A stretch of DNA of 64,000 nucleotides, taken from positions 12,673 to 76,672 of the forward strand of contig CALJHG010000012.1 in assembly GCA_938075585.1 (NCBI GenBank), written 5' to 3'. This document shows positions 19,908 through 34,302 of the stretch, piece by piece (position 1 is the first letter of the stretch; every line of letters begins with the position of its first letter). Under the pieces are notes generated by a model. The model ran no database searches, had not been told where the DNA came from, and saw only the letters and a list, made by a program, of their open reading frames with translations. The position numbers were made by a program, and so were the translations under genes. This DNA comes from an uncultured Gammaproteobacteria bacterium (lineage in GTDB: Bacteria; Pseudomonadota; Gammaproteobacteria; Ga0077536).

Positions 19908-21773
19908 ATGACATCCGAAAAAATCTACCCTCTTCTGGACACTATCGCGAGCCCTTTCGACCTTAGGAAGTTGTCGGAGGAAAGTCTCCCACAAATCGCC
20001 GAGGAGGTGAGAGAGTTTTTGATAGACTGCATAAGTGGAGTGGGTGGTCATTTTGCGTCGGGTCTCGGCAGCGTGGAGCTCACGGTAGCGCTTCATTATC
20101 TTTATAACACTCCGGATGATCGGATTGTTTGGGATGTAGGTCATCAGGCTTATCCGCACAAGATACTAACCGGTCGTAAAGGTAAATTGCATACCATTCG
20201 ACAGTCGGAAGGATTGTCACCTTTCCCCAAAAGAGAAGAAAGTGATTACGATACTTTTGGCGTGGGCCATTCGAGTACTTCAATAAGTGCGGCGCTAGGT
20301 ATGGCGATCGCCGCCAAAATAAATAAAACGCGGCGTCGGTCTGTGGCGGTTATAGGAGATGGTGCCATGACTGCAGGTGTTGCGTTCGAGGCGTTAAATC
20401 ATGCGGGTGATATTGAAGCCGACATGCTAGTCATTTTAAATGACAATGATATGTCGATCTCGCCAAATGTTGGCGCGTTATCAAATAGGTTTGCGAAAAT
20501 CCTCTCCGGAAAGCTCTATTCGTCGGTCAGGGAGGGCAGTAAAAAGATGCTGTCTCAAATGCCTTCGATTTGGGAGTTGGCGAGACGGACTGAGGAGCAT
20601 GTCAAGGGGCTTATTGTCCCAGGAACCTTGTTTGAGGAGTTTGGCTTCAACTATATCGGACCGATCGATGGCCATGATTTACCAACTTTGATTGCCACTC
20701 TAAAGAATATTCAAAAATTGTCGGGGCCTCAGTTCCTGCATGTAATCACGAAGAAAGGTAAAGGGTATCCGCGCGCTGAGGAAGATCCAGTTAAGTATCA
20801 TGGGGTTAGTGCCTTTGATCCTGCGGTAGGCATACTTCGTTCGGCAGCCAAAAAGCGTCCGAATTATAGCGATATTTTTGGTGACTGGATTTGTGATATG
20901 GCGGCTAAGGATGACCTTTTGGTTGGGATTACACCAGCCATGAGAGAGGGCTCGGGTTTGGTTGAGTTTCAAAAATTATACCCAGAACGTTACTTTGATG
21001 TGGCGATCGCTGAACAGCACAGTGTTAACGTTGCGGCGGGAATGGCGTGCGATGGGTTAAAACCAGTTGTCGCGATTTATTCTACGTTTTTACAGCGCGG
21101 ATATGATCAAGTAATTCACGACGTATGTAATCAAAATCTTCCAGTGTTATTCGCGTTAGATAGAGCAGGCCTGGTCGGGGCTGACGGCCCTACGCACAAT
21201 GGAAGCTACGATTTAACTTTTTTAAGATGCTTACCCAATATGATGATCATGGCGCCCGCAGATGAAAACGAATGCCGCCAAATGTTATACACTGGCTTCC
21301 TTGGAGAGGGCCCCGCGGCGATTCGATACCCCAGAGGAACTGGACCTGGAGTAAATGTTGATGACGAAATGTATGAGCTGCCAATAGGTAAGGGCGCGGT
21401 GGTGTCAGATGGGCAAGAAGTGGCCATTTTATCTTTTGGTACGACACTTGAGATAGCTAAAGCTGTGGGTGATGATATCGGAGCAACAGTCGTAAATATG
21501 CGATTTGTGAAACCTATCGATGAGGAGTTAATTTTAGAAATTGCTAAAAGCCACCGCTTCATTTTCACCATCGAAGAAAATATGGTGGCAGGAGGAGCTG
21601 GCAGCGCGGTCAACGAAGTATTAGCAGAAAATAATGTAATAGTACGTGTCGCGAATTATGGGTTACCCGATCGACTAATACAACACGGATCACGAGATGA
21701 CATGCTCGTGGACGCTGGCCTCACAGAGACAGCATTTGCGTCATTCATTCAAGGACGTATTGCAGCCGATTGA
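19908..21773 (+). CDS. dxs: 1-deoxy-D-xylulose-5-phosphate synthase
   Basis: [26 protein letters not shown], ThDP motif [11 protein letters not shown], and IAEQH. 621 aa. Confidence 0.96.
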
Positions 21774-21774
21774 G

Positions 21775-22851
21775 TTAAGTTAGAGCTCTCTTCAACGCGC
21801 GCATTAATCGGTTGATATCTGTCTCGGAGATATCTCCCATCGGTGAAATTCTAAAGACTTCACTGGAAAATTTCCCTTGCCCCGCGTAAATAATAAAGCC
21901 AGAGCTTTTTAGTTCGTCATGTAGCTCCACGTATGTTTTTTTGGGAGGTAGTTTGAAACTAGCTAAAACACAAGAAGATTCCTCTCTATTAATCAACTCC
22001 TCTATACCGAGCCCGCTTAAGCAGCCCCTAATAGTGTTCATGCGATGTTGAAAAGTTGCGTTCCGTTGTCTCCAGCCACCGTGTTCAATAAACTCGTCAA
22101 GTGCCTCGTTTAGAGCGTAGAAGCATTGCACTGACTGAGTGAAAGGAGTTTCACCGCAATCTTGCTTGCTTAGATAAGTGGATAAATCCAGATAAACTGT
22201 TTTGGGAGGTCTAGCGGCGGCGAGAGCTGCCCGGTTGACCAATACAAAGGCAGCTCCGGGCACTCCGTGCAGACATTTATTAGCAGTAGCTGCGCACGCA
22301 TCAAGATTCCATTTTTCGAACTCAATATTCTCGCCGCCGAAACTGCTAACGCCATCTAGCAAAATACGCACCTCATGACGCTTACATATTTTCCCGAGCT
22401 GCTCAAGTTTGTTCAGGCGACCGGTTGTTGTTTCATGATGTACTAACGCAATGTGAGAAAACTGTTTTTGTTCCAGTATCGTTTCCAATTTATCGCCTTC
22501 TATAGCGTCAAGCCAGTCGGAATTTAAAACATCGTATTTTATTCCGTGAGCATGCGCAATTTTAGTCATGCGTTCGCCATACACCCCATTTTCCACAATC
22601 AAAATACGCTGATTTTCGGGTACAAGACTAGCAATCATCGCTTCTACTGCCGCAGTACCTGAGCCGGTGAGTAGAACACTCGCCCAGGTCGTAGCATCGA
22701 GATTATAGATTGAGATAAGTTTTTTTCTGATGGACTCCTGTAATAAACTGAACTCAGGCTCACGGTGGCAAAGATCCTCCTTGCCGAGCGCGTCACGTAC
22801 TCTCTTGGATAGCGATACCGGACCAGGATTTAGTAGGATTAATGGATTCAT
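21775..22851 (-). CDS. 2-aminoethylphosphonate:pyruvate aminotransferase (PhnW/AEPT type, class V PLP enzyme)
   Basis: LLNPGPVSLS, VHHETTTG, TANKCLHGVPGAAFV (PLP lysine) and FRISPMG. Colinear with Salmonella PhnW (SANKCIQGVPGFAFV, FRIGNIG). It is the last gene of the PepM operon. Confidence 0.85.
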   Translation of the reverse strand: MNPLILLNPGPVSLSKRVRDALGKEDLCHREPEFSLLQESIRKKLISIYNLDATTWASVLLTGSGTAAVEAMIASLVPENQRILIVENGVYGERMTKIAHAHGIKYDVLNSDWLDAIEGDKLETILEQKQFSHIALVHHETTTGRLNKLEQLGKICKRHEVRILLDGVSSFGGENIEFEKWNLDACAATANKCLHGVPGAAFVLVNRAALAAARPPKTVYLDLSTYLSKQDCGETPFTQSVQCFYALNEALDEFIEHGGWRQRNATFQHRMNTIRGCLSGLGIEELINREESSCVLASFKLPPKKTYVELHDELKSSGFIIYAGQGKFSSEVFRISPMGDISETDINRLMRALKRALT

Positions 22852-22867: not shown

Positions 22868-24028
22868 TTATAAATTGTTACTGTCGGTTGAGGCAATAGT
22901 GCGCATGAAACGTTGTAAAACTTCCGCTGGCTTAATCGCCGGTCTGGGTAAGTTCTCTATTGTGCCCGCTCGAATCTTTACGTGCATAAAATGACATCCC
23001 TTTTCAGTTTCATTACCAAGAAAATCGTCTAAGTACTTAAGTGAGTCGCTGCGCCAGACATGTTGGTAACCGCATGCCAATGCTATCTCAGAAAAGCCAG
23101 TTGCTCTAGATACGGTTTGCTGACCACCTGTAGAGTCATGCGCTTCATTATCAAGCAGCACATGTTTCAGATTACTAGGAGAATAAGCACCAATTGTGGC
23201 TAAATTGCCCATGCGCATGAGTGCAGCCCCGTCTCCATCGATAATTACAACTTTTAAGTCCGGCCTAGCTAATGCTAAACCTAGAGCTAGCGATGAGGCG
23301 CACCCCATCGAGCCAACCATATACAGATGGTTCGCACGATCGTTAATAGCGTAAAGCTCTCGTCCTGTATAACCAGTAGTCGCGATAAGAACTGTTTTCT
23401 CATCATTGGTTGCCTGAACAAGTTTTTTTAATACCTCGTGTCGCGTTAGTAGATTTGCGTGACTAGGTTCTTCAATAAATCTTTGGTTTTTCGCTGCTAT
23501 TGGTGCTGTCTGATCCTTTAACGTATACGGCGCCACAGATCCTTTTTCCATGATTAGAGCCTGTGGCAAACTACTTTCGTGCATGTTTGCCAACGCGGTT
23601 TCGATTGTTGTATTTATATTCTCTGACTTAGTTGGGAACCTAGCTACTGGAATACCAATAGTCTCAAATAATTTGCTCGTGATCTTACCCATAAGTTCAT
23701 GCTGTGGTTCGTCAGTAAGATTGGGTGCCCCGCGATGAGTGCAAATTATGAGTAATGGTATTTTGAAGGTATAAGTCAGCGATGTTAGTGGACTAATTGC
23801 GTTCCCTAAACCTGAATTCTGCATTATAGCAACGGAGGAGACTCCTCCAATTGCAGCTCCAGCCGCGGTAGCAACCGCATCGCCTTCGTTAGCGGCAGAA
23901 ATATATGTCAATGATCTTTCGTTAATCACATAGTTGATTAATGGTGTCAGAAATGAACATGGTACACCAGCATAAAAAGTAATATTTTTACTTTTCATTT
24001 CATCAATAAACTCTTTTGCGTCGATCAC
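22868..24028 (-). CDS. phosphonopyruvate decarboxylase
   Basis: N-terminal IDAKEFIDEMKSKNITFYAGVPCSFL and ThDP motif IIDGDGAALMRMGN..LLDNEAHDSTG. It lies immediately downstream of PepM. I place the start at GTG 24028 (M-IDAKEF), which removes the track's 41-nt overlap with PepM. Confidence 0.88.
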   Translation of the reverse strand: MIDAKEFIDEMKSKNITFYAGVPCSFLTPLINYVINERSLTYISAANEGDAVATAAGAAIGGVSSVAIMQNSGLGNAISPLTSLTYTFKIPLLIICTHRGAPNLTDEPQHELMGKITSKLFETIGIPVARFPTKSENINTTIETALANMHESSLPQALIMEKGSVAPYTLKDQTAPIAAKNQRFIEEPSHANLLTRHEVLKKLVQATNDEKTVLIATTGYTGRELYAINDRANHLYMVGSMGCASSLALGLALARPDLKVVIIDGDGAALMRMGNLATIGAYSPSNLKHVLLDNEAHDSTGGQQTVSRATGFSEIALACGYQHVWRSDSLKYLDDFLGNETEKGCHFMHVKIRAGTIENLPRPAIKPAEVLQRFMRTIASTDSNNL

Positions 24029-24038
24029 TTTATGACTC

Positions 24039-25682
24039 TTACTTGTGATTAGTCCCGGCAAAGGCGCTCGCCCTGTCAAGATCTGTTATTGAATTAACAT
24101 CGATCCAGTGTCCGTGAATATATATGACGCGAATAGGATTTCCGTCACTCAATATCTGGTTGATAAGATGTCGAAGGCTTAATTCGTTAAAATTTTGCTT
24201 TTCCTTTAACTTTTTCAGCGCATTTGTCAGCCATTCGCGACCGATCCCTTTAACTCTCAACATACCAATCCACCTCCCATCGGCTTGCTTTTCATTGAGG
24301 GTATCGTCAGTGCTTAGGTGCTCTAGCAAAATATCTTGTCCCCATAGGGTCCTATCGTCTGAAGCGGAGCAATACGCCAGATCCGGCACTCCTGAGCCTT
24401 CGTCAGATTTACTTTGGGAATCAACAACTATTGTCATCTCTCTATCCGATTCGAGTAAACTCCTGAGAACATATCCCCTAAAAAGTAAGTCACCATAAAT
24501 CACTACCATATCGTCACAAAAGCTAGCACTAGCGGTTAGCAATGAACTTAATTCACCACTGTTTGCATATTCATGATTGACTATTAAGTCGATTTTTTCT
24601 GTTGGGATCGTATCCGCTTTGTAACCCCCTACTATCGTCACAGCATCAACACCTTGTCTCTTACAACGCTCTACAAGTCTCGACAATAATGGTTTGCCAT
24701 TTACGGGAATCATTGCTTTAGGTCGATCTTTAGTTAGTTCGTCTAGCCCTTGCCCTCGCGAAGCTGCAAGAATTATAGCCTTTGTTCCTTTTCTCGCACC
24801 AAGAAAATATTGTCTTTCAGCCTCAGCTAATTCCTGGGCACCTTGAAGTCTAAATATTTCTTTAACACTTGCTATATCATCTTCTACTTCTGTGAGATTT
24901 TCTTGCTCTTTGATCTTAAAAGCACATTCTTGCATCGCGGTAATAGCACTTCTTATCAGGTGGTTAGCCCAGATGATTAGGTTGACGTTAGCATCGCGGA
25001 AAACCTGCGTTGGAGTGCTGTAATACTTTGTGGGCACTATAACTAGCGGCGCCCGAGACGCCCACTCTTTAGTAAATTCAAGAATTTGATCTGGTCGCGA
25101 CAAAGCGCTGTGGATTAAAATCGCGTCCGCGCCAGCCTTGTGATAGGCCTCTGCGCGACGAATCGCTTCTTTAGTTTCCCATCCCGCGATATAGGCCTCC
25201 ACTCGCGCCACGATACAAAAATCAGGGTCTAGATGGGAGTCTTTACCAGCAGCTATTTTCCCACAAAACTCATCGACGTCTGCTAGTTCTTGCTTCTCAC
25301 CATTTATGAAACTATTTTTTTTTGGAAATAATTTGTCTTCAATACAAACGCCCGCTACTCCGCGTTGTTCCAATTTACGCACTAGGCGTCTCATGTTATT
25401 GAAGTTACCGTACCCTGTATCTCCATCAAGCAATATCGGAACACTGGTTACATCTGCCATGAATTCTACCATGTCAACGATTTGCGTCCAGCTAGCTTCA
25501 TTATTGTCCCTGACACCAAACTGAGCTGATAGAGCCAATCCACTAGCCCAAATACCATTGAACCCTGCCTCTTCCGCAATACGCGCGCTGATACCGTTGT
25601 GCGCTTCAATAATAAAGTCTAATTCTTGCGTTTTAAGGAGATTTTTTAATTTGGAGGTTTTAGACATCATCTTTGTTTTCAC
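24039..25682 (-). CDS. phosphoenolpyruvate mutase (PepM) fused to a C-terminal nucleotidyltransferase domain
   Basis: Residues 1-290 or so carry [44 protein letters not shown] and the PepM-diagnostic EDKxxxxxNS ([13 protein letters not shown], residues 115-124). Residues 300-547 or so carry [28 protein letters not shown], an NTP-transferase fold. The start is GTG 25682 or ATG 25670. Confidence 0.9.
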
Positions 25683-26419
25683 TCGGCCAGAATTCTAGGT
25701 AATATTTCAGTTTTCGCTCTCGTGACGTCTTCGGGATAATCAATTTCTATCCACGGCAAGTTGGTTATATCTTCTACGCCGATATTATAGCGTTCAATCG
25801 AAATAAGTTCTCTCAATGCTTCCTCGTGCGGCAGATGATGCTGGCCGTCACTCAACAGTTCAGAGATAATTGTCTCTAGTTTTCTGCACAGGTCAGTTGA
25901 AAATTTGAAAAAACCAACAGACTCGCCGATTTCATCGTAAGAGGTTCCTTTCGGTAGCTTTTTTCGAAATTCAACAATCTGTCGCTTTTTTAGACATATC
26001 TTTACGGGTTCGTCGCCTTCTATAAAATTTTTATCAATTAGAAAGCAGTTAGAAAACGGACTTTTAATAAGTCGTTTCAAAATAGCAGGGTGGTATAAAA
26101 CATCTGCATCCATCAAGATGATTTCACTGCCACCCGTTAACACGGCTCTGGTTGTCCAAAGGCTAACTAACGAACCGAGTCGAAACAGTGGATTGAAATG
26201 GAAAGCTACGTTTGGTGCACGAATAGATTGGATAAAGCGGCGAATTTCATGGGACATATGTCCCAGACAAAGATGAATTTCTGAAATTCCCTCCGCATTT
26301 AGGTTTTTAAGATGGTTTTCTAAAAGAGTACTCCCACCGAATTCAAGGAGACATTTCACCGATGGATGTGAACTGCCAAGCCGAGAACCTACCCCCGCTG
26401 CTAAAATAATGGCTTTCAT
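25679..26419 (-). CDS. LicC-like nucleotidyl(cytidylyl)transferase
   Basis: [15 protein letters not shown] glycine-rich NTP loop, about 245 aa, LicC/phosphocholine-cytidylyltransferase-like layout. Start placed at ATG 26419, which overlaps the upstream stop as ATGA. Confidence 0.75.
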
Positions 26420-27165
26420 TGTTTTCGCCCAATTAGTCGTTTCCACAATTCCGCGAAACCGAAGTAGGCGATAGCATCTTTCATATCAGATACAAAGCGC
26501 AGATAAGGGGACATGTTTGTGGAGGTTACATATTCCATGGTAAGCGCCACACGTTTTTCATTTACGCCACTAGGGGTGACTCGGTGTCTTACTTTGTCAC
26601 CGTTAAAAAACACAAGCTCGCCAGGCATCAATTTTATACTTTTCATAACAGTCTTAGCACCCTTTATCTTCGTGTAAAGTTCACACTCCAGTCTACAGGA
26701 AGAATTATCCTGCAGGCCGACTAACGCAGTGTATCTTGATTCGGAGTAGTACGAGGTATCGTAGTGGAATCCTATGTGATCTCCTTTTCGGGTATAGAGA
26801 TACAAGGCATATGCATGTGCGTCATTAGGGGGACAAGTTAATAATTTTTTATCCGTGATTTGAGAAAAGAGGTTTAAGCTAGATTTTGAGAAATAGACTT
26901 CTTTAAATGGCGGCGCATGCTCTTCTAAGCGAAAGCGAGAAACACTACCCCCGCTTTTATGTTTTGGGAGGTAGCTCCTGTGGACGTAAGGTTCAACTTC
27001 CGGCAGTATTTCTAACAATTGATTTGTTATACTCGCGGGCAAGAAGTCTGGAATGCGAATGAACTCGTCTGCTTTGAGAAAATCATCTCGCAAAATTCGG
27101 CCGTCAAATTGATTAATATGGGACGCTATTTCGTTTTCTATTTTAGTTTTGGATAGTGATTCCAT
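26416..27165 (-). CDS. Fe(II)/2-oxoglutarate-dependent oxygenase superfamily protein
   Basis: HxD...H facial triad candidates (GFHYDTS, then DKVRHRVTP) followed by RVALTMEY (a 2OG-binding Arg position). 249 aa. It is the first gene of the phosphonate operon. Confidence 0.6.
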   Translation of the reverse strand: MESLSKTKIENEIASHINQFDGRILRDDFLKADEFIRIPDFLPASITNQLLEILPEVEPYVHRSYLPKHKSGGSVSRFRLEEHAPPFKEVYFSKSSLNLFSQITDKKLLTCPPNDAHAYALYLYTRKGDHIGFHYDTSYYSESRYTALVGLQDNSSCRLECELYTKIKGAKTVMKSIKLMPGELVFFNGDKVRHRVTPSGVNEKRVALTMEYVTSTNMSPYLRFVSDMKDAIAYFGFAELWKRLIGRKQ

Positions 27166-27307: not shown

Positions 27308-28318
27308 ATGTCTAAGAGCATAAAAGTGTTATTTCTGTTACTAGGTGTTGCATTGTTGCTTCTAGTCATACGAGAAACAGACATTGAGAAATTGTGGCAG
27401 CACGTTACTTCTGTCGGTTTCTCAGGTATTTGTTTAATACTAATCGTGTATTTTTTCTATTTTGGGTCCGACGTCTTAAGTTGGCAAGTAGTACTAATTA
27501 AGTCCAGATTAAGTTTCCGCTGGTTCCTCCGACTTTATGCAGCTCGAATGGTTGGCGAAGCTTATAATAACATCACTCCTACTGCCTCTCTGGGCGGGGA
27601 GCCAATAAAGGCATGGCTGATGAAGGCGAACTGGGGCGTTCCGCTCCGCGATTCTGCTTCGTCTTTAGTCATCACTAAGACCGCTAGTATGTTATCCCTG
27701 AGTATTTTTGGGGCGATCGGTATTTTCTTGATGCTAGGCGAGGCCGTGTTCACAGTCACAGAAAAGAATGCAGCTATAGCCAGTGTGGTTTTCGTGATTT
27801 TTTCCACGATTGTGTTTTTTTTGATGCAGTATTTCCGGTTTTCCTCTTCTATTACTAAAAAGTTAGGACGCTTTGAATTTGCTAAAAATCTTACTAGTTC
27901 GTTCGCGGCTGTGGAAGACATTGATGATCAGTTCGTATCGTTCTACCAACGACATTACGTACTAGCATTTTTTTCGTGCTTGGCTGCAATGTGTAGTTGG
28001 CTATTCGGTGTTTTGGAAATATATGTCATTCTTTATCTGATAGGCTTTCCTTTAAGTATCCAAGAAGTATTTATTGTTGAGAGTGTTGTCCAGTTGGTGA
28101 GAGTCGTTACATTCTTCATACCAGCGGGGCTCGGGACTCAAGAAGGTGCTTTTTTGTTCACAATAGGCGCTCTTACCGGTTTGCCGGCATTGGGGGTTGC
28201 GACGGCTTTGCTCAGACGTTTCAGAGATTTTATTTGGATTGCTGGTAGCTTAGTGCTTGCCTCATTTTATTCTATCAAACCATGGTCTTCGTCGATTAAT
28301 TCTGTCGAAGACGGGTGA
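27308..28318 (+). CDS. UPF0104/LPG-synthase-TM (flippase-like) membrane protein, HpnL-like
   Basis: About 8 TM helices, with the family-typical SLGGEPIKA and IPAGLGTQEGAF motifs. It is located between the phosphonate operon and hpnA. Confidence 0.65.
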   Translation: MSKSIKVLFLLLGVALLLLVIRETDIEKLWQHVTSVGFSGICLILIVYFFYFGSDVLSWQVVLIKSRLSFRWFLRLYAARMVGEAYNNITPTASLGGEPIKAWLMKANWGVPLRDSASSLVITKTASMLSLSIFGAIGIFLMLGEAVFTVTEKNAAIASVVFVIFSTIVFFLMQYFRFSSSITKKLGRFEFAKNLTSSFAAVEDIDDQFVSFYQRHYVLAFFSCLAAMCSWLFGVLEIYVILYLIGFPLSIQEVFIVESVVQLVRVVTFFIPAGLGTQEGAFLFTIGALTGLPALGVATALLRRFRDFIWIAGSLVLASFYSIKPWSSSINSVEDG

Positions 28319-28330: not shown

Positions 28331-29320
28331 CTATTTCGATACAAAGTCATCAAACCACTTTGTGGCGTCTTCTATTGCTGTGACTGCTGATCTGCTCTTG
28401 TAATTGAGTTCTCGTCGAGCTTTGTCCGAGCTAAAGTACATTTGATAGGCAGCCATTTTTAAGCCCTCCACAGTAGCTTGTGGGGCTGGTCCATTAGTTA
28501 ACCAAGCCCAAAATTCAGAGATATAGGCTATTGGAAATATTAATTGCCTTGGTAAACAGATCCTCGGAGGTCTGCCGCCGCTAGCCTTAGCGACATAAAA
28601 TAAGATCTCCTTTAGTGTTAAGTCCTCGCCACCGAGTATGTATCTTTCTCCCACAGCACCACGCTGAAACGCTAGTATGTGTCCAGTTGCTATGTCATCC
28701 ACATGCGCAATATTCAATCCAGTATTCACGTAGGCAGGCATACGTCCATTTATTGCGTCTAAAATAATTCTGCCTGTGGGAGTCGGTTTTGCATCTCGAG
28801 GGCCAATGGGGGTCGAAGGATTTACAATAACGGCAGGCAAACCCTCGGTTCGGATTAATCGATCTACTTCTTTTTCGGCTAAAAATTTGGACCTCTTATA
28901 ATGTCCAATCATGTCAGAAAGCTTCGATTGGGTGGATTCGTCCGATACTGCGCCATCCTTTGTCACGCCTATAGTAGCGACACTACTAGTGTAGACTACA
29001 CGCTCAATACCACCCTCAAGCGCTCCTAACATGATATTTTTTGTTCCTAAAACATTGTTATCATATAAATCCTTGGAGCGGCGTGCCCATAGTCGGTAAT
29101 CCGCCGCCACATGATATAGGTGATTGCAGCCGCGGAGTGCATTTTTTATTGATGAAGGATCTTGTATATCTCCCACGAATTTTTCCGCTTCAATATCTTG
29201 AATTGTGCTTGTGTTACTGCTCTTCCGAATTAGTAATTTAATTTCGGCACCAGTTTTTTGTAGTGCACGGGCGATCGAGTTTCCGAGGAAACCGGTAGCC
29301 CCGGTGATTAATGTCTTCAT
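28331..29320 (-). CDS. hpnA: hopanoid-associated NAD-dependent sugar epimerase/SDR (HpnA)
   Basis: MKTLITGATGFLGNSIARAL Rossmann motif and YxxxK (YKRSK). 329 aa. It is the last gene of the sqs-hpnG-hpnN operon. Confidence 0.75.
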   Translation of the reverse strand: MKTLITGATGFLGNSIARALQKTGAEIKLLIRKSSNTSTIQDIEAEKFVGDIQDPSSIKNALRGCNHLYHVAADYRLWARRSKDLYDNNVLGTKNIMLGALEGGIERVVYTSSVATIGVTKDGAVSDESTQSKLSDMIGHYKRSKFLAEKEVDRLIRTEGLPAVIVNPSTPIGPRDAKPTPTGRIILDAINGRMPAYVNTGLNIAHVDDIATGHILAFQRGAVGERYILGGEDLTLKEILFYVAKASGGRPPRICLPRQLIFPIAYISEFWAWLTNGPAPQATVEGLKMAAYQMYFSSDKARRELNYKSRSAVTAIEDATKWFDDFVSK

Positions 29321-29322: not shown

Positions 29323-29919
29323 TTACCAGCTGCCTCCTACTACACTTCGGTACTGTTTATAGACGATAATGGCGCCAACAGGGGCGCCGATTGTTGCAGC
29401 GTACAAGAACAGTTGCAGTCCTTCGCACATTGTTACTATCGGTAAAAGATATAGAACATCTTCCGCCTCAAGCCCCGCCAAACTTGGTTGTTTAGTACCA
29501 ACCTTACCTATAGTGTCTTCAATTAGATAACGTAAATGGAAAATAAATGCCACCGAAAATCCTGCCAACATACCACCCAGTAGGTTAGACATTTGAACTG
29601 AGCTACTCAAGCCATATCCTATACTGACAAACAATAGTATCGTCACAATCCCGTCGGAAACTAGATCGAACAGATGCCCAAAACGAGTTGCTTTCTCGCC
29701 TATTCGGGCTAGTTCTCCATCCATGTGATCGATGAAGTTAGATAGCGCTATCATGAATGCAGCGGTGTTAATATGATCAGAAAAGGCAAATAGCCAACAA
29801 CCCATAACACCAATTAGCAGGCGCAGTGATGTGAAGTGGTTTGGTTGAACTGCTGTCGAAGATGCGAAAGGTGTGACAAGCCAAGCTGCTAACCGAGCAT
29901 CCCACGGTTTATTTCTCAT
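29323..29919 (-). CDS. CDP-alcohol phosphatidyltransferase family protein
   Basis: Exact signature D(x)2DG(x)2AR(x)8G(x)3D(x)3D in DHMDGELARIGEKATRFGHLFDLVSD. 198 aa, about 5 TM helices. Its ATG lies 11 nt inside the 3' end of hpnN, and its stop is 2 nt from the hpnA start. Confidence 0.85.
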   Translation of the reverse strand: MRNKPWDARLAAWLVTPFASSTAVQPNHFTSLRLLIGVMGCWLFAFSDHINTAAFMIALSNFIDHMDGELARIGEKATRFGHLFDLVSDGIVTILLFVSIGYGLSSSVQMSNLLGGMLAGFSVAFIFHLRYLIEDTIGKVGTKQPSLAGLEAEDVLYLLPIVTMCEGLQLFLYAATIGAPVGAIIVYKQYRSVVGGSW

Positions 29920-32530
29920 AATTTGTTGTCCTGGGTCGCATAAAATATTCTAATAGATGGGGTAGAAGAATTAAGGAACAGATTAAATTAATAATCAGAC
30001 CAATTGATAGCAGTACCCCCATACTAGCCGTCCCAGCATGTGGGGAAAACGCTAGATTACCGAAGCTCGCTCCTGTTGTCAGCGCACTCAAAAAAACAGC
30101 TTTAGCCGTGCCCGTTCTAAGAAAGTGTTCATCTTTTTGTTGCATACGCTTGTATCGATAAAGCACATGAAGCGTGCTGTCTACACTTATCCCGACTAGG
30201 AGAGGTAGTGCAATAATGTTCGCAAAATTGAACGATATGTCTAGTGCGACTAGAATCGCAACCGTGAAAACACATCCGATGACTAAAGGAGTCATAACGA
30301 CTAACAGCTGTTTAAGATGTCTAGTTGATAGCCAAACTACAGCCGTTACAACGGCTATCGCGAATAAGAATGCCTGCGTAAACGAGGTTATCACTGCCTG
30401 GCTAGCCTCAGCATTTATGATCGGGACACCTGTCGCGTTTTGTCCGACGATTTCGCGAACCTTATTTATAAAGAGCACTATTTTTTCATTGGTATCTAAA
30501 ATATTTTTCGGAATGATTTCGAGGCGATAACTACCGTCATTGCTTACCCAGCGTTCCTTCAATGTTTTAGGTAAAGATTGTAGGCTGATTTTCTCGGCTT
30601 CGGTCCCAGCATTAATCTGTGAAATCAGTGTGGGGAAATGACGCATAATATGTGAGTCTAATTGGCGGTAGAATTTTCTTTTCTCGTGATCATCAAGATT
30701 CATATTCGCTTGTTTTAACCTATTAAGCGTTTTAGAAAACGCAAGCGTCTGAAATGTTGGATTATCGATATCTTTAATTGTGTCCAAATTCCTACTGATA
30801 TTTTTCTCTAAAAGGAGAGGGTCATTGTCGGGTGAGCCGATTTCGATATCACCGCCCAGTGACCACATCATATTTTCGATGATTTTTAATTTTTCATCTT
30901 GGTCATTCGGGATAAAATTTTGCAGTGTTCTGACTTCTTTAACCTCAGGTAACATCATCAACTCGGATGCCAGACTATGAGATTCTTGCTCGTTTTTAGC
31001 TATAAAATTAATTGAGTCTATAGCCACTATCCCGTCCAAAGAAAGGTCATTGAGTGTTGTAACCGACTCAGCTTCCGGATTGTTTAAATGGATTGGGTTT
31101 ATATCAAATTCAGCTTGCTTTGCTATATTCAGTCCCCCAAGGAAAATTAAAGCTGAGACAATCAAAAATGATTTTCTTGAGAGAGCGAGTAGGGGTTTAT
31201 TCTTTTTGTGGGTATTTTTTCGATATTTATGTAATGGTACTTTCGGAAAAATTGAGATCATTGCGGGTAAAATAGTAAAGCTGGATAAAAGTCCAACGAT
31301 CATTCCGGCGCCCGCGATTAACCCTAACTCTGCAACGCCTTTGTAAGTCGTCGGAATAAAGGCTAAAAATCCTATGCTTGTCGTAAATGCGCAAAGAGAT
31401 AATGGTGCAATATTGTGCGCCGTTGCTCTATCAAGTGCTTTCGCTTGGGGTTTTTTGATACTTTCTTCCACATATGTGGAGTAAAAATGGATTGCGAAGT
31501 CCGCAGCCAGTCCCACGTAGAGCACTGAGAAAGCGATGGAAATCATATTAAAACTTCCTATCGCTATTGCTGCGAAAGCAGAGGTATAAGTTAGGCCAAG
31601 GATAACTACAAACATTATTGAAAAAACTGCTGACGGCGATTTAAGTCCGATACTTAAAACCAGTAATATGGCAGTCAATGCTAAAATTCCTGCTTGGCCC
31701 GCACCCTGTATCACACTGTTTAATTCGTCATACCCAAGTGCTGCTTGGCCCGTTAGTCGCACATTAACGTTAGGCCATTTCTCAGCAGAGATGGAATCAG
31801 AGATGCCCCTTATACGATCGATTAACTTTGACCCAGGTAGCAATTCGTCAAACTTAAGGTCTGGTTGGATCGTAAACAGTACCCGATGATCATGCAGAAC
31901 ATCACGCTCACTATTTAACAAGCTCTGCCAAGACATCGGAGTATTAGCTCCAGACATGAAAGAATCCAAAGAATTAGTTAAAGAATCTACGAATGACCTA
32001 CTTCCTTCAATATTTTGGTTGGTATTCTTGTTATGGATTAAATTAGTAATATCCAACAAACCTAAAACACTAGGATCTTGAGCAAGCATTCCAAGCAGAG
32101 CTTGAGATTGAGTAAGAGTGTCTGCTACAGCTACTAATTTATCTGGGGCTAGGTAGAGGAATTTATTTTGTCGAAAAAAATCTTCTGATTCAGGAAAGAA
32201 AATGTTCTCTGGATTGACGCCGAAGTTGACGATTTCTTTCCGAAAATAGGAGCTTGCTTCGAGGGTTAACTCGGCGGTTGGTCCTTCAACAACTACAATG
32301 ATCGTGTCTGAAAAAAACGGAAATTTTTCTTTGTAGTTACTGTGAGCGATACGCCAATCAAGTTGGTCTGAAAGCATATTTTCTGTATTGGTATCAATTC
32401 GAGCATACTGGATCGTTATCCATGTACTTAATACAGAAGCAAGGATTGCTGTAACGACGACCAGGTATTTTTTACTGATACTAAATTGCACCAGACCAGA
32501 GAGACATTGATTGACGCAGTTTGAAATCAC
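29909..32530 (-). CDS. hpnN: RND/MMPL-type hopanoid transporter (HpnN)
   Basis: 873 aa with two 6-TM bundles and two large periplasmic loops (MMPL/RND architecture), flanked by hpnG and hpnA. Confidence 0.8.
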   Translation of the reverse strand: MISNCVNQCLSGLVQFSISKKYLVVVTAILASVLSTWITIQYARIDTNTENMLSDQLDWRIAHSNYKEKFPFFSDTIIVVVEGPTAELTLEASSYFRKEIVNFGVNPENIFFPESEDFFRQNKFLYLAPDKLVAVADTLTQSQALLGMLAQDPSVLGLLDITNLIHNKNTNQNIEGSRSFVDSLTNSLDSFMSGANTPMSWQSLLNSERDVLHDHRVLFTIQPDLKFDELLPGSKLIDRIRGISDSISAEKWPNVNVRLTGQAALGYDELNSVIQGAGQAGILALTAILLVLSIGLKSPSAVFSIMFVVILGLTYTSAFAAIAIGSFNMISIAFSVLYVGLAADFAIHFYSTYVEESIKKPQAKALDRATAHNIAPLSLCAFTTSIGFLAFIPTTYKGVAELGLIAGAGMIVGLLSSFTILPAMISIFPKVPLHKYRKNTHKKNKPLLALSRKSFLIVSALIFLGGLNIAKQAEFDINPIHLNNPEAESVTTLNDLSLDGIVAIDSINFIAKNEQESHSLASELMMLPEVKEVRTLQNFIPNDQDEKLKIIENMMWSLGGDIEIGSPDNDPLLLEKNISRNLDTIKDIDNPTFQTLAFSKTLNRLKQANMNLDDHEKRKFYRQLDSHIMRHFPTLISQINAGTEAEKISLQSLPKTLKERWVSNDGSYRLEIIPKNILDTNEKIVLFINKVREIVGQNATGVPIINAEASQAVITSFTQAFLFAIAVVTAVVWLSTRHLKQLLVVMTPLVIGCVFTVAILVALDISFNFANIIALPLLVGISVDSTLHVLYRYKRMQQKDEHFLRTGTAKAVFLSALTTGASFGNLAFSPHAGTASMGVLLSIGLIINLICSLILLPHLLEYFMRPRTTNYEK

Positions 32531-32539: not shown

Positions 32540-33217
32540 CTATTTAATAAGCAAATCAGCACTGGAGCTGAGTGTTTTTAATGCTTTACGAAAATGAAAC
32601 GATAGTTCGATTAGACTTTTTAGTTCCTTTGGTCTGTACGCTAACTGTTTTAGTACTTTGAACATTACTTGATTCCCTTGAGAGTCCATGCCGGCAAGCG
32701 CTGAAGATGGTATTTCAAAATTTCCGCTATCAACGATAGCTCTTATGGACAGAAAGCCGCAGCTGTTTTTTTTGGCTATTTTTGCTATAGCAATAGATTC
32801 CATGTCTACTGCATCGGCACTACTGGCATCGTGTAATTTTGATTTTTCTGCCGGTGAAATTATCGGTTTTTCGCTAGAGGTAATTCGGCCCAGAATTGGA
32901 TTTAGCGGGTTTAGCTCATCAATAACTCGTTTTCCAAGATCACTAGTAAAATCCAGTGTTTGGTCAGAAATAGTTTCGACCTGCTGACTTATCAATAGCC
33001 TTCCTGGTTGTAGTGACTGATTTAGTCCTCCACCGACGCCCCAACTTATGAAAAAATCATGTCCCTCCGATAAAAGTTGCTTGGCGGCTTTTTCAGCATA
33101 TTTCAAGCCTGGACTCGCCATACGCACAGTAAACGGAATTTCTCCTAACAATTGGCCAATTTTATTTTCCAGAGCTTTCGCTTCAGAGGCCATAGCCACA
33201 ATGATTCCAATTTTCAT
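32540..33217 (-). CDS. hpnG: hopanoid-associated nucleoside phosphorylase (HpnG)
   Basis: PNP_UDP_1-type N-terminus MKIGIIVAMASEAKAL and DMES. Start taken at ATG 33217; the track's TTG 33226 would overlap sqs by 4 nt. Confidence 0.8.
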   Translation of the reverse strand: MKIGIIVAMASEAKALENKIGQLLGEIPFTVRMASPGLKYAEKAAKQLLSEGHDFFISWGVGGGLNQSLQPGRLLISQQVETISDQTLDFTSDLGKRVIDELNPLNPILGRITSSEKPIISPAEKSKLHDASSADAVDMESIAIAKIAKKNSCGFLSIRAIVDSGNFEIPSSALAGMDSQGNQVMFKVLKQLAYRPKELKSLIELSFHFRKALKTLSSSADLLIK

Positions 33218-33222
33218 TGTGC

Positions 33223-34302
33223 TCAAGTATCTTGTGAGTCTACAAGGTCGCTAATACTTCTAATTGGGACAGTCACCGGAGTGACGCGCAAACTTTTAGT
33301 TCCCAGTTTGAATAAAATATTTAAGTACTGGTTCGAGCGAGATAGAAAGCTCGTAGCTCCAATTGTCGCTGTGACCCAACGTCTCGAAATTTTTACCTCT
33401 GAGCCACTTTTAAAAGACGGATTCTTATTTATTTTTACAAGAGTGAGTATCGCCATTCCAAGTGCCCATAAACAAAATCGTCTTATCCCAGGTTGATTGC
33501 GCGGTAGCATTAGAGTGAATTTTAGAGCATTTTTCAAATGGCCGGCGGCTAGAGCGACTAGATCTTGTAATCCTAACTCGAATTGAGTCCCTTCTTCTCC
33601 TGGGATGACTTTACTTAATTCAACATTGTAGTTTAGAAAGGTTTGTTGTGGGAGCCAGCAAACCCCCCGTTCCTTGTCGGTCCAAATATCCTTTAGGATA
33701 TTCGTCATCTGTAAGCCTTGCCCAAAAGAGACCGAAAGTTGGAGGAGGTAATTTTTTTTATCAGATAGCTCTGGGCAATAATCACAAAAAATGTGAGTTA
33801 ACATTTCACCAACAACACCCGCTACGAAATAGCAATATTGGTCCATCTCATCTTGGTCGAGAAGTCCTTCTGAGGACTCGTGACCCTGGTACATCATCAT
33901 GCCTTTTGCCATTTTAGTCACACACTTGATGATAGCGTCTTTCTGTTCAGGCTTAAGGTCGTGAGTAATTCTCGTGACCTTGTCAGTTGACTCGATAAGC
34001 TTGAGTTCATCTCGGGGTGTATCCACTGACAAGTTCTTTACTAAGGCTTCCGAAAAAAGCTGTGCGTCACCATCACTTGCTATTACCCGCACAAATTGAC
34101 GTGACAGGTCGGACTTTATTTCTAGCGATAAGTCGGGGTCATCCTCGATCGTATCTTGTATGCGGCAAAGTAGATATGCGTTACCGACAGCACGCTCTAA
34201 TATTGGTGGTAGTTGTGGAATAGTGAGGGCGAAAGTTCTCGAGACACCAAATAGAATGTCCTTTTGAAAGTACTCATCTTCTAGAGTTGGTGCGTTGACC
34301 AT
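33223..34302 (-). CDS. sqs: squalene synthase (farnesyl-diphosphate farnesyltransferase, single-enzyme SQS type)
   Basis: SRTFALTIPQLP..AYLLCRIQDTIEDD (first Asp-rich region) and YCYFVAGVVGEML, resembling SQS (SRSFAAVI..RALDTLEDD). 359 aa with a C-terminal hydrophobic tail. Confidence 0.8.
   Translation of the reverse strand: MVNAPTLEDEYFQKDILFGVSRTFALTIPQLPPILERAVGNAYLLCRIQDTIEDDPDLSLEIKSDLSRQFVRVIASDGDAQLFSEALVKNLSVDTPRDELKLIESTDKVTRITHDLKPEQKDAIIKCVTKMAKGMMMYQGHESSEGLLDQDEMDQYCYFVAGVVGEMLTHIFCDYCPELSDKKNYLLQLSVSFGQGLQMTNILKDIWTDKERGVCWLPQQTFLNYNVELSKVIPGEEGTQFELGLQDLVALAAGHLKNALKFTLMLPRNQPGIRRFCLWALGMAILTLVKINKNPSFKSGSEVKISRRWVTATIGATSFLSRSNQYLNILFKLGTKSLRVTPVTVPIRSISDLVDSQDT

What the first reader, a model, noticed from the sequence alone, without database searches (positions are those of the whole stretch)
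29323..29919. CDP-alcohol phosphatidyltransferase translationally nested between hpnN and hpnA
Seen: a 198-aa membrane protein carries the exact signature DHMDGELARIGEKATRFGHLFDLVSD. Its ATG (29919-29917) lies 11 nt inside the end of hpnN (..TAT GAG AAA TAA read in the other frame), and its stop is 2 nt from the hpnA start. So it is co-transcribed, and probably translationally coupled, with the hopanoid transporter. Known: this family transfers a phospho-alcohol or phosphonyl head group from a CDP- or CMP-activated donor to a lipid or polyol hydroxyl. Eukaryotic ethanolamine phosphotransferases accept CMP-AEP. Inference: this is the best candidate for the enzyme joining the phosphonate head group (CMP-AEP from the neighbouring operon) to its lipid acceptor. 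The acceptor could be a bacteriohopanetetrol-type polyol.
Basis: partly seen in the sequence, partly recalled or inferred. Interest (0 to 1): 0.7.

Follow-up and report, generated by a model that had tools for sequence, protein, structure and literature searches.

The report
Phosphonate head-group transferase inside hopanoid operon
This small membrane enzyme most likely attaches a carbon-phosphorus (phosphonate) head group to a membrane lipid; it belongs to a gene set already described but never characterised, and its repeated placement inside hopanoid gene clusters makes a "phosphono-hopanoid" lipid a testable idea.

Summary
ORF 29323-29919(-) encodes a 198-aa CDP-alcohol phosphotransferase with the exact signature motif. 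It overlaps the end of hpnN by 11 nt and stops 2 nt before hpnA.

It is not a housekeeping PgsA or PssA. It is the orthologue (about 50% identity, full length) of the CDP-OH transferase in the published but uncharacterised "Group 1 phosphonolipid" / "Burkholderiales_CDP-OH" seven-gene core: Ppm-PntC, Ppd, AEPT, 2OG oxygenase, a second PntC, a CDP-OH transferase and HpnL. All seven genes are in the window, but they are split and interleaved with hopanoid genes.

- Of 37 related loci with at least 5 kb on both sides, 35 carry phosphonate genes next to it and 22 carry hopanoid genes.
- The module lies within or beside hopanoid loci in alpha-, beta- and gammaproteobacteria, in different gene orders.
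- Its membrane partner belongs to TIGR03476 (HpnL), a family also found in a hopanoid locus with no phosphonate genes.

A CMP-(hydroxy)AEP donor is well supported. A hopanoid polyol acceptor is plausible (about 0.45) but unproven, and diacylglycerol remains a rival. Three genome-mining papers have already speculated about a "terpene-phosphonate". I therefore rate this a new member of a known kind, of moderate to high interest because it is testable in cultured strains.

The parts
29323..29919 (-). CDP-alcohol phosphotransferase (198 aa), predicted phosphonyl head-group transferase. This is the finding.
   Evidence: ORF. PF01066 E 2.6e-13. 50% full-length identity to the Burkholderia and Cupriavidus cluster genes. 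AF2 pLDDT 91.6, with AF2299/DIPPS the best fold matches.
29653..29730 (-). Catalytic signature DHMDGELARIGEKATRFGHLFDLVSD (D63, D66, D84 and D88 are the metal and diphosphate ligands of this superfamily).
   Evidence: The regex scan finds it once in the window. These residues are invariant in the 31-sequence family alignment.
29909..32530 (-). HpnN, the RND/MMPL hopanoid transporter. Its last 11 nt overlap the target's start.
   Evidence: TIGR03480 778.5 bits, above the 751.85 cutoff. Overlap seen.
28331..29320 (-). HpnA, hopanoid-associated SDR ('sugar epimerase'). It starts 2 nt after the target's stop.
   Evidence: TIGR03466 463.4 bits, above the 367.65 cutoff.
32540..33226 (-). HpnG-like phosphorylase (adenosylhopane to ribosylhopane step).
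   Evidence: TIGR03468 154.4 bits, below the 187.1 cutoff; PF01048. Syntenic in all type-A loci.
33223..34302 (-). Squalene synthase (SQS type), first gene of the SQS-hpnG-hpnN-target-hpnA run.
   Evidence: PF00494 E 3.7e-52. Best NCBIfam hit is TIGR01559, below its cutoff.
27308..28318 (+). HpnL-like LPG_synthase_TM (flippase-like) membrane protein, a core member of the phosphonate module.
   Evidence: PF03706 E 2.1e-29. TIGR03476 145 bits, below the 195.65 cutoff. The genes at the equivalent position in L045, Mycetohabitans and Roseomonas score 304, 330 and 260 bits.
26416..27165 (-). 2OG-Fe(II) oxygenase (HalD-like). The literature predicts it makes 1-hydroxy-AEP.
   Evidence: PF23169 E 3.1e-10. 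Seven-gene core member.
25679..26446 (-). Stand-alone PntC-like cytidylyltransferase (predicted CMP-AEP synthase).
   Evidence: PF12804. Best PDB match is 6pd1, T. denticola PntC, E 4.4e-9 over the full length. Also matches the IPCT half of IPCT/DIPPS at 3.3e-20.
24039..25682 (-). PEP mutase fused to a C-terminal nucleotidyltransferase (Ppm-PntC).
   Evidence: TIGR02320 387 bits, above the 319.55 cutoff; PF12804 at residues 302-419. PDB 1m1b E 5e-120.
22868..24079 (-). Phosphonopyruvate decarboxylase. The true start is probably downstream of the listed TTG.
   Evidence: TIGR03297 437.8 bits, above the 312.5 cutoff, matching residues 32-394.
21775..22851 (-). Class-V aminotransferase, predicted 2-AEP transaminase.
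   Evidence: PF00266. 51-52% identical to the Mycetohabitans gene annotated as AEP aminotransferase and to its B. cenocepacia counterpart.
19908..21773 (+). Dxs (MEP pathway entry). It is adjacent to the module in the gamma and beta loci (next to AEPT) and lies between the module and HpnN in Roseomonas.
   Evidence: PF13292 E 6.9e-122. The same adjacency is seen in Mycetohabitans and Roseomonas.
18519..19649 (-). HpnH-type radical SAM enzyme (adenosylhopane synthase).
   Evidence: PF04055 plus DUF3463. 62% identical to the M. bullatum hpnH region.
17353..18462 (-). HpnB-like GT2 glycosyltransferase.
   Evidence: TIGR03469 376.3 bits, just under the 379.25 cutoff.
15838..17289 (-). MlaA/VacJ-like lipoprotein (15838-16611) and HpnM, a MlaC-like protein (16681-17289). 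Predicted hopanoid trafficking pair.
   Evidence: PF04333 and PF05494. TIGR03481 163.5 bits, above the 160.1 cutoff.

Best explanation
The gene encodes the head-group transferase of a conserved phosphonate-lipid module.

Proposed pathway (inferred from homology):
1. PEP is converted to phosphonopyruvate by PepM.
2. Phosphonopyruvate is converted to phosphonoacetaldehyde by Ppd.
3. Phosphonoacetaldehyde is converted to 2-AEP by the aminotransferase.
4. The 2OG oxygenase may hydroxylate C1 of AEP. Whether and when this happens is unknown.
5. The PntC-like cytidylyltransferases activate the phosphonate as CMP-(hydroxy)AEP.
6. The 198-aa, six-TM enzyme acts at the cytoplasmic face of the inner membrane. 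It uses its D-x2-DG-x2-AR...G-x3-D-x3-D metal site to let a lipid hydroxyl attack the phosphonate phosphorus, releasing CMP.
7. The HpnL-type flippase-like protein would move the product across the inner membrane, and HpnN, HpnM and MlaA-like proteins would carry it outward.

In this lineage the acceptor is most likely a C35 hopanepolyol (BHT-type) made by HpnH, HpnG and possibly HpnA. The product would then be a phosphono-hopanoid.

Shown here by computation: family membership, orthology to the published seven-gene core, obligate pairing with the phosphonate genes, and recurrent placement within or beside hopanoid loci.

Inferred: the donor (about 0.8), the hopanoid acceptor (about 0.45), and the roles of HpnL and HpnN.
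For: Family and fold.

Not housekeeping: all PgsA, PssA, Cls, PIPS and AIPS equivalog scores lie far below their cutoffs.

Donor:
- The neighbouring NTP transferase's best solved relative is PntC, crystallised with CMP-AEP.
- The transferase and the NTP transferase each resemble one half of IPCT-DIPPS, in which the NTP domain makes the soluble CDP-alcohol donor.
- A CDP-OH::NTP_transf_3 fusion is seen on two independent contigs.
- There is a eukaryotic precedent, CMP-AEP + DAG via EPT1.

Module membership:
- 35 of 37 well-flanked loci have phosphonate genes adjacent.
- Stand-alone seven-gene operons occur in L045, B. cenocepacia and Cupriavidus.
- In PLSDB, carriers of this family and of the full-length PepM-NTP fusion are the same 15 records.
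- The literature describes the same seven-gene core.

Hopanoid link:
- 22 of 37 loci carry hpn genes within 10 kb.
- Different arrangements occur in gamma (the window and L001-L037), in unidentified metagenome clades (L047, L053, L070), in beta (Mycetohabitans: core-dxs-x-x-HpnN-HpnM-ispH) and in alpha (Roseomonas marmotae: the module sits between hpnA-B-C-D-E-shc-hpnG/hpnH-ispH and HpnN-VacJ).
- In L067 a bona fide HpnI lies two genes upstream, and the intervening radical-SAM gene overlaps the start of the transferase.
- On the family tree, hopanoid adjacency occurs in several separate clades.
- The module's membrane protein belongs to TIGR03476 (HpnL), the same subfamily found beside HpnI in the M. 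bullatum hopanoid locus, which has no phosphonate genes.
- One CDP-OH::HpnN fusion protein exists.
Against: - No biochemical or lipid data exist for any member. The literature states that no phosphonolipid has been characterised from this cluster family.
- 13 of the 35 well-flanked loci with phosphonate genes have no hopanoid gene within 10 kb. In Burkholderia sensu stricto the module lies more than 1 Mb from hpnN, so linkage is frequent but not obligatory.
- Co-localisation could reflect shared export or regulation of two outer-membrane lipids rather than covalent joining.
- The only known enzymatic precedent for CMP-AEP transfer uses diacylglycerol.
- The CDP-OH::HpnN fusion is a singleton on one 3.6-kb contig. 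The CDP-OH::oxygenase 'fusions' in Pandoraea are called as separate genes in RefSeq.
- The loci are not phylogenetically independent, and most come from metagenomes.
- No squalene-hopene cyclase gene lies in the window.
- To my knowledge, published bacteriohopanepolyol inventories list no phosphorus-containing hopanoid (own knowledge; searches found none).
Confidence: 0.45

Rival explanations
1. Same donor, ordinary acceptor. The enzyme transfers (hydroxy)AEP from the CMP-activated phosphonate to sn-1,2-diacylglycerol, giving a phosphonate analogue of phosphatidylethanolamine. On this view the hopanoid genes are neighbours because both lipid types are co-regulated or co-exported during outer-membrane remodelling.
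For: - This is the only biochemically known reaction of this type (EPT1 with CMP-AEP + DAG).
- The literature labels the cluster a 'phosphonolipid' cluster.
- Self-contained seven-gene operons without nearby hpn genes exist (L045, L050, L091, L095).
- Modules lacking PepM are flanked by Omp85-family genes rather than hpn genes (L086).
Against: - It does not explain why the module is embedded in hopanoid loci in three proteobacterial classes in different gene orders.
- It does not explain why the dedicated membrane protein is an HpnL-subfamily member.
- It does not explain why the gene is coupled to hpnN and hpnA here.
- No phosphonolipid has been characterised from this cluster family despite its abundance in Burkholderia. 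In my own judgement, AEP-DAG would be easy to spot in routine lipidomics.
- The enzyme is closer to AF2299, DIPPS and PIPS than to the DAG-using CPT/CEPT enzymes.
Confidence: 0.3
2. Same donor, other acceptor. The phosphonyl group goes onto a non-hopanoid, non-DAG hydroxyl, for example a sugar or cyclitol of a glycolipid, lipid A/LPS core, a sphingoid base, or a soluble polyol as in DIPPS.
For: - The closest characterised relatives (DIPPS, AIPS, PIPS) use inositol-phosphate acceptors.
- The family has an invariant polar stretch (R129, E133, G137-K138, Q143, E150, E152-D153) that suits a polar acceptor.
- HpnI or HpnB-type glycosyltransferases are nearby in L067 and in the window.
- 1-Hydroxy-AEP is known on a sphingolipid in Bacteriovorax.
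Against: - No inositol-phosphate synthase or sphingolipid gene was seen in the examined neighbourhoods.
- A flippase-like partner and an RND lipid transporter point to a lipid product.
- If the sugar or cyclitol belongs to a composite hopanoid, this reading merges with the best explanation.
Confidence: 0.12
3. Housekeeping or CDP-diacylglycerol-dependent enzyme (PgsA-, PssA-, Cls- or PIPS-like). It would use CDP-DAG as donor and a soluble alcohol, possibly 1-hydroxy-AEP, as acceptor. Its position would be incidental, or it would make a phosphatidyl-hydroxyAEP.
For: - The superfamily signature is shared with these enzymes.
- JGI auto-annotations call relatives 'phosphatidylglycerophosphate synthase'.
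- The 2OG oxygenase could create a hydroxyl on AEP.
Against: - All equivalog models score far below their cutoffs: PgsA 23.9 against 109.1, PssA 25 against 107, ClsA 30.9 against 240, PIPS 30.2 against 170.
- The gene is strictly paired with PepM-NTP and PntC genes, which would be pointless if the phosphonate were not CMP-activated.
- At least one related genome has a separate PgsA-like paralogue nearby (L009).
Confidence: 0.05

Closest known systems
CDP-OH transferase of the 'Group 1 phosphonolipid' cluster (Yu et al. 2013), also called the 'Burkholderiales_CDP-OH' seven-gene core (Li & Horsman 2022, PMC8942020)
   Same: About 50% identity over the full length to the Burkholderia, Cupriavidus and Mycetohabitans genes. 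All seven core genes are present in the window with 42-60% identity; the HpnL-like gene is the exception at about 24-29%. The predicted role is the same: attaching (hydroxy)AEP to a lipid.
   Different: Here the core is not one colinear operon. The transferase has been moved into an SQS-hpnG-hpnN-X-hpnA operon, the HpnL-like gene is inverted and divergent (145 bits, below the TIGR03476 cutoff), and the other five genes sit between it and dxs/hpnH. The reference family itself has no characterised product.
IPCT-DIPPS and AF2299 of Archaeoglobus fulgidus (PDB 4mnd, 4o6m, 4q7c)
   Same: These are the best sequence and fold matches (E 1e-7 and 6e-5; TMq 0.66-0.76). The logic is also shared: a cognate cytidylyltransferase makes a soluble CDP-alcohol donor for the membrane transferase. 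The window's stand-alone NTP transferase matches the IPCT half.
   Different: Only 18-22% identity. The two activities are on separate proteins here. The NF041135 score is 40.8 against a 580 cutoff. The donor is predicted to be a CMP-phosphonate rather than CDP-inositol, and the acceptor is predicted to be a lipid.
Eukaryotic ethanolamine/choline phosphotransferases (EPT1, CEPT1, CHPT1) acting on CMP-AEP
   Same: The predicted chemistry is the same: CMP-AEP plus a lipid hydroxyl gives a phosphonolipid plus CMP. The catalytic signature is the same.
   Different: The structural match is weak (E 0.017-0.39). The eukaryotic enzymes are about 360-390 residues in the matched chains, against 198 here. 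This is a 'works like', not a 'member of', relationship.
Hopanoid-associated Hpn proteins (TIGRFAM HpnA-HpnN set), especially HpnL (TIGR03476)
   Same: The gene is embedded in and overlaps hpn genes. Its module partner is an HpnL-family protein.
   Different: No Hpn model covers this protein. Hopanoid loci exist without it (M. bullatum; Caballeronia, C. metallidurans and Azospirillum replicons carry HpnN but no homologue). It also occurs in operons with no hpn gene nearby.

Membership tests
CDP-alcohol phosphotransferase superfamily (PF01066) | Signature D-x2-DG-x2-AR-x8-G-x3-D-x3-D | tested here: met
   DHMDGELARIGEKATRFGHLFDLVSD at residues 63-88. These residues are invariant across the family alignment.
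CDP-alcohol phosphotransferase superfamily (PF01066) | Profile score above Pfam's gathering threshold | tested here: met
   51.1 bits against 22, E 2.6e-13.
CDP-alcohol phosphotransferase superfamily (PF01066) | N-terminal interfacial helix plus a six-TM-helix core fold | tested here: met
   The AF2 model (pLDDT 91.6) has seven helices, H5-17 plus six long ones. The top 28 Foldseek PDB hits are all CDP-alcohol phosphotransferases.
CDP-alcohol phosphotransferase superfamily (PF01066) | Catalysis: transfer of a substituted phosphate from a CDP-alcohol with release of CMP | not testable with these tools
   Needs an enzyme assay.
Group 1 phosphonolipid / Burkholderiales_CDP-OH seven-gene core | Orthology of the transferase to the Burkholderiales cluster gene | tested here: met
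   47.6-51% identity over 96-98% of the length, with one place per record. It is the only CDP-OH gene in the window. A reciprocal best-hit test was not run.
Group 1 phosphonolipid / Burkholderiales_CDP-OH seven-gene core | Co-occurrence with Ppm-PntC fusion, Ppd, AEPT, 2OG oxygenase, a second PntC and an LPG_synthase_TM protein | tested here: met
   All six partners lie within 21775-28318 of the window. Each has a match in the same order in B. cenocepacia, Mycetohabitans and Cupriavidus.
Group 1 phosphonolipid / Burkholderiales_CDP-OH seven-gene core | Seven genes colinear in one operon | tested here: not met
   In the window the transferase sits in the hpnN-hpnA operon, and the HpnL-like gene is on the opposite strand. 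This split order is conserved in the gammaproteobacterial clade.
Housekeeping PgsA / PssA | Score above the NCBIfam equivalog cutoffs | tested here: not met
   TIGR00560 pgsA 23.9 against 109.1. TIGR00473 pssA 25 against 107. PRK10832 21.7 against 304.
Archaetidylinositol-P / phosphatidylinositol-P synthases and DIPPS | Score above the NCBIfam equivalog cutoffs | tested here: not met
   NF040950 56.7 against 180. NF045883 30.2 against 170. NF041135 40.8 against 580. These are nevertheless the nearest characterised relatives.
Eukaryotic EPT/CPT (CMP-AEP-accepting) | Close sequence or fold similarity and the larger architecture of about 360-390 residues | tested here: not met
   Foldseek E 0.017-0.39 to 8ero, 9uet, 8gyw and 8ul9. 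The query is 198 aa.
Hopanoid biosynthesis gene set (Hpn) | Presence tied to hopanoid loci or genomes | tested here: inconclusive
   22 of 37 well-flanked loci have hpn genes within 10 kb. 14 of 15 PLSDB replicons with the gene also carry HpnN. However, stand-alone operons exist, and a genome-wide shc profile could not be run.

The most novel reading that the evidence does not exclude
The module makes a lipid class not yet described: a bacteriohopanepolyol (BHT-type C35 side chain, or the sugar/cyclitol of a composite hopanoid) esterified with 2-aminoethylphosphonate or 1-hydroxy-2-AEP. This enzyme would be the CMP-AEP:hopanepolyol phosphonotransferase. HpnL would be the flippase for charged-head-group hopanoids, and HpnN/HpnM/MlaA-like proteins would export the product. 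That would at once assign a product to the most abundant ppm neighbourhood family in RefSeq (318 of 882 neighbourhoods), give HpnL a function, and add a phosphorus-bearing hopanoid to marine and soil lipid inventories.
Probability: 0.4. Interest if true: 0.8.

Novelty: new member of a known kind. Interest (0 to 1): 0.58.

Why it matters
- The seven-gene 'CDP-OH' phosphonate cluster accounts for about a third of the ppm neighbourhoods surveyed in RefSeq (318 of 882), yet has no known product.
- HpnL is still listed as 'function unknown' in hopanoid biology.
- This window, together with the loci gathered here, shows that the two puzzles concern the same genes. The module's membrane protein is an HpnL, and the module repeatedly sits within or beside hopanoid loci in alpha-, beta- and gammaproteobacteria.
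- That turns a passing speculation ('phosphonoterpene') into a concrete hypothesis that can be tested in cultured strains such as Roseomonas marmotae, Mycetohabitans rhizoxinica, B. cenocepacia and Nitrosococcus.
- If true, it would add a phosphorus-containing hopanoid that standard acetylation-based hopanoid analyses would miss. That is relevant to marine phosphonate budgets and to biomarker interpretation.
- If false, and the product is AEP-DAG, the cluster's product would still be settled.

Tried and rejected
1. Housekeeping PgsA/PssA reading: rejected on NCBIfam cutoffs and on strict pairing with phosphonate genes.

2. 'HpnL is specific to the phosphonate module': I held this briefly. I rejected it after finding TIGR03476 members in a hopanoid locus with no phosphonate genes (M. 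bullatum, 337.5 bits) and as a stand-alone gene (Paraburkholderia, 298 bits).

3. Gene fusions as strong evidence: downgraded.
   - CDP-OH::HpnN (P0188) and CDP-OH::LPG_synthase_TM (P0147) are singletons on contigs of 3.6 kb and 3.3 kb.
   - The Pandoraea CDP-OH::oxygenase calls are split into separate genes in RefSeq.
   - Only CDP-OH::NTP_transf_3 is seen on two contigs.

4. The promoter and terminator scan of 19000-35000 gave counts at or below shuffled expectation. It says nothing about operon boundaries.

5. The PDB sequence search for the 2OG oxygenase gave only chance-level hits. The '1-hydroxy-AEP' step therefore rests on the literature's prediction alone.

6. The genome-contig scan with the single protein returned only 3 close relatives, because its patterns were too specific.

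7. L067 radical-SAM gene as HpnJ: rejected (54 bits against a 577.6 cutoff). It looks more like a B12 rSAM methyltransferase.

8. Literature searches for any characterised hopanoid-phosphonate lipid, or for Nitrosococcus hopanoid inventories, found none.

9. The Rfam scan of the window found only one tRNA.
Full report
**1. Observation**

- 29323..29919 on the minus strand, ATG start, 198 aa.
- The hpnN frame reads AAT TAT GAG AAA TAA across the target's ATG, so the two genes share 11 nt.
- The target ends TGG TAA. Two bases later the hpnA ATG follows, with AGGAGG about 14 nt upstream.
- The peptide carries DHMDGELARIGEKATRFGHLFDLVSD, a perfect D-x2-DG-x2-AR-x8-G-x3-D-x3-D signature. It is the only one in the 64-kb window.
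- Pfam PF01066 scores 51.1 bits against a cutoff of 22.
- 506 homologues were found, and their conserved MxxKPWDA N-terminus confirms the start codon.
- AlphaFold2 on a 31-sequence alignment gives pLDDT 91.6 and pTM 0.86, with an N-terminal helix plus six long helices.
- Every significant Foldseek hit in the PDB is a CDP-alcohol phosphotransferase.
- The neighbours pass the curated cutoffs for HpnN and HpnA.
- The overlapping junctions persist in relatives at 83%, 55% and 53% identity.

**2. The neighbourhood**

Reading the minus strand from 34302 down:
- Squalene synthase, HpnG-like, HpnN, the target and HpnA form one tightly packed run, with overlaps or gaps of at most 9 nt.
- An LPG_synthase_TM protein lies on the plus strand (27308-28318; best hit HpnL, below cutoff).
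- A second minus-strand run follows: 2OG oxygenase, a stand-alone nucleotidyltransferase, a PEP mutase-nucleotidyltransferase fusion, phosphonopyruvate decarboxylase and a class-V aminotransferase.
- Then come dxs (plus strand), HpnH, an HpnB-like GT2, HpnM and a MlaA-like lipoprotein.

No squalene-hopene cyclase lies in the window, and the right half of the window is housekeeping.

**3. What the gene is**

It is not a housekeeping phospholipid synthase. PgsA, PssA, ClsA, PIPS, AIPS and DIPPS equivalog models all score far below their cutoffs. By sequence and by fold its nearest solved relatives are AF2299 and the IPCT-DIPPS bifunctional enzyme. PIP synthases come next, and PgsA, PSS and CPT/CEPT are weaker.

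A tblastn search against PLSDB found full-length matches of 47.6-51% identity in four Burkholderia, one Cupriavidus and nine Mycetohabitans replicons. In those replicons the gene heads a colinear operon: CDP-OH transferase, 2OG oxygenase, LPG_synthase_TM, PntC-like, PepM-NTP, Ppd, AEPT.

This is the 'Burkholderiales_CDP-OH' seven-gene core of Li & Horsman 2022. It equals the Group 1 phosphonolipid cluster of Yu et al. 2013.
- It makes up 318 of 882 RefSeq ppm neighbourhoods.
- It is predicted to make a 1-hydroxy-AEP lipid.
- No product has been characterised.

All seven genes are in the window, so the target is this module's transferase.

**4. How tight is the pairing with phosphonate genes?**

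A metagenome scan with the family alignment, plus look-ups of individual homologues, gave 95 loci. I ran tblastn with 16 window proteins against the 91 loci that encode the transferase.
- Among the 37 with at least 5 kb on both sides, 35 have phosphonate genes adjacent.
- The two exceptions are near-identical TARA contigs in a metal-resistance context.
- In PLSDB, 116 records carry a PepM. Only 15 carry the full-length PepM-NTP fusion, and they are exactly the 15 that carry this transferase family.

**5. Donor**

- The stand-alone nucleotidyltransferase's best solved relative is T. denticola PntC (6pd1/6pd2). That enzyme was crystallised with its product CMP-AEP.
- The PepM-fused domain also matches LicC and PntC.
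- The transferase and the nucleotidyltransferase each resemble one half of IPCT-DIPPS, in which the NTP domain makes the soluble donor.
- A CDP-OH::NTP_transf_3 fusion occurs on two contigs.
- Eukaryotic EPT1 using CMP-AEP with diacylglycerol is the chemical precedent.

I put the CMP-(hydroxy)AEP donor at about 0.8. Why there are two cytidylyltransferases, and when the oxygenase acts, remain unexplained.

**6. Acceptor: the hopanoid link**

22 of the 37 well-flanked loci carry hopanoid genes within 10 kb. The arrangements differ between lineages.

| Lineage or locus | Arrangement |
|---|---|
| Gammaproteobacterial clade (the window) | SQS-hpnG-hpnN-X-hpnA |
| Sister clade | Same, without hpnN |
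| Two metagenome subclades | hpnH...SQS...hpnG-hpnA-X-oxygenase-HpnL-... |
| Mycetohabitans (beta) | Core followed by dxs, two unknown genes, an equivalog-level HpnN (1244 bits), HpnM-like and ispH |
| Roseomonas marmotae (alpha; transferase 32% identical) | Module without the oxygenase, between hpnA-B-C-D-E-shc-hpnG/hpnH-ispH and dxs-HpnN-VacJ |
| L067 | HpnI (374 bits, cutoff 310) and a B12 radical-SAM gene lie just upstream; the radical-SAM gene overlaps the start of the transferase |

On a neighbour-joining tree of the family, hopanoid adjacency appears in the basal branches, across the whole gamma clade, and in several subclades of the other main clade, which is otherwise mostly stand-alone.

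The module's membrane protein is also informative.
- The copies in L045, Mycetohabitans and Roseomonas score 304, 330 and 260 bits on TIGR03476 HpnL (cutoff 196).
- The same model scores 337.5 bits on a gene in the M. bullatum hopanoid locus, two genes from HpnI. That locus has no phosphonate genes.
- A 2025 preprint on hopanoid loci still lists HpnL as unknown and does not mention phosphonates.

One CDP-OH::HpnN fusion protein passes the HpnN cutoff. It is a singleton on a 3.6-kb contig, so it is weak evidence.

**7. Evidence against a hopanoid acceptor**

- 13 of the 35 well-flanked loci with phosphonate genes show no hpn gene nearby.
- In Burkholderia the module and hpnN are more than 1 Mb apart on the same chromid.
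- Four loci have only transferase-oxygenase-HpnL-PntC, or part of that set, with no PepM within reach. In L086 an Omp85-family gene follows.
- Adjacency could reflect shared export or regulation.
- The only known CMP-AEP transferases use diacylglycerol.
- No phosphorus-bearing hopanoid turned up in the literature.

On the other hand, no phosphonolipid of any kind has been reported from this abundant cluster family. That is mildly easier to explain if the product escapes routine glycerolipid and acetylation-based hopanoid methods. This last point is my inference.

**8. Mechanism proposed**

1. PEP is converted to PnPy, then PnAA, then 2-AEP, possibly followed by 1-hydroxylation.
2. The phosphonate is activated as a CMP-phosphonate.
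3. A lipid hydroxyl attacks at the transferase's dinuclear metal site (D63, D66, D84, D88) and CMP is released.
4. HpnL flips the product.
5. HpnN, HpnM and a MlaA-like protein export it.

Acceptor probabilities: hopanepolyol about 0.45, DAG about 0.30, other hydroxyl about 0.12, and a CDP-DAG-dependent reading about 0.05.

**9. Comparison with known systems, and novelty**

The gene is a member of the CDP-alcohol phosphotransferase superfamily and of the published seven-gene phosphonate cluster family. It works like EPT1 with CMP-AEP but is not a member of that family.

The terpene-phosphonate idea has appeared three times as a one-line remark:
- an antiSMASH hybrid call in Nitrosococcus;
- Acetobacteraceae genome mining;
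- Li & Horsman.

The finding is therefore a new member of a known kind. The added value here has four parts:
- the transferase and 'hpnL' of this window are identified as the split halves of that module;
- the pairing statistics;
- the embedding in three classes of Proteobacteria;
- the link to the HpnL family.

Together these make the hypothesis directly testable in cultured strains.

**10. Limits**

- There are no experiments.
- The loci are related to one another, not independent.
- Most are metagenomic, with no organism assigned.
- tblastn thresholds define 'presence'.
- A genome-wide shc profile could not be run.
- The fusion evidence is thin.

Noticed in passing
window 39531-40520 (-): The IspB-like polyprenyl synthetase ORF is called from an internal ATG (231 aa). 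However, 97 further in-frame codons upstream (40227-40517) encode the conserved N-terminus, including the first DDxxD region, and contain no ATG, GTG or TTG. The first plausible start is ATC at 40505-40503. This suggests a non-canonical start codon or a sequence error.
   Followed up: partly
window 27308-28318 (+): The window's HpnL-like gene scores only 145 bits on TIGR03476 (cutoff 196) and is about 24-29% identical to the module HpnLs of Burkholderiales. In this clade it is inverted relative to the rest of the module. It is either a divergent orthologue or a replacement.
   Followed up: partly
L086 10001-14627; also L026, L068, L077: Some metagenome loci carry only transferase-oxygenase-HpnL-PntC, or part of that set, with no PepM, Ppd or AEPT within the available flank. 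In L086 an Omp85-family gene follows; L045 also has an Omp85 gene after its complete module. These organisms may scavenge AEP or use another head group.
   Followed up: partly
L067 8340-9986 (+): A B12-binding radical-SAM protein with DUF4070 overlaps the start of the transferase. Its best hit is the PhpK family of P-methyltransferases, far below cutoff, and it is not HpnJ. It sits between HpnI and the transferase and may indicate a methylated phosphonate or hopanoid variant.
   Followed up: partly
L067 4702-5922 (-): An IscB-like RNA-guided endonuclease ORF (108.5 bits against a 175 cutoff) lies just upstream of the HpnI/phosphonate cluster.
   Followed up: no
L009 912-1526 (-): A second, unrelated CDP-alcohol phosphotransferase (204 aa, motif DVFDGLIARRRQQASKLGTMLDHGSD) lies next to an NAD-binding epimerase-like gene, 9 kb upstream of the cluster in a 5.3-Mb genome. 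It shows that these genomes keep separate CDP-OH enzymes.
   Followed up: partly
L092 23524-25369 (Roseomonas marmotae p1318-3): The dxs gene between the phosphonate module and HpnN matches in three pieces and has no CDS listed in the PLSDB table, which omits pseudogenes. It may be a frameshifted pseudogene. A dxs gene lies beside or near the phosphonate module in the alpha, beta and gamma representatives examined.
   Followed up: no
window 15838-17289 (-); L092 25460-28872: A MlaA/VacJ-like lipoprotein sits beside HpnM in the window and beside HpnN in Roseomonas. This fits the Mla-like hopanoid trafficking route proposed in a 2025 preprint.
   Followed up: no
window 22868-24079 (-): The listed TTG start of the phosphonopyruvate decarboxylase overlaps PepM-NTP by 41 nt, and the family model matches only from residue 32. 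The real start is probably an internal codon.
   Followed up: no
window 17353-18462 (-): The GT2 next to HpnH scores 376.3 bits on HpnB, against a cutoff of 379.25. It is a borderline HpnB whose function, like that of HpnA, is unknown.
   Followed up: no
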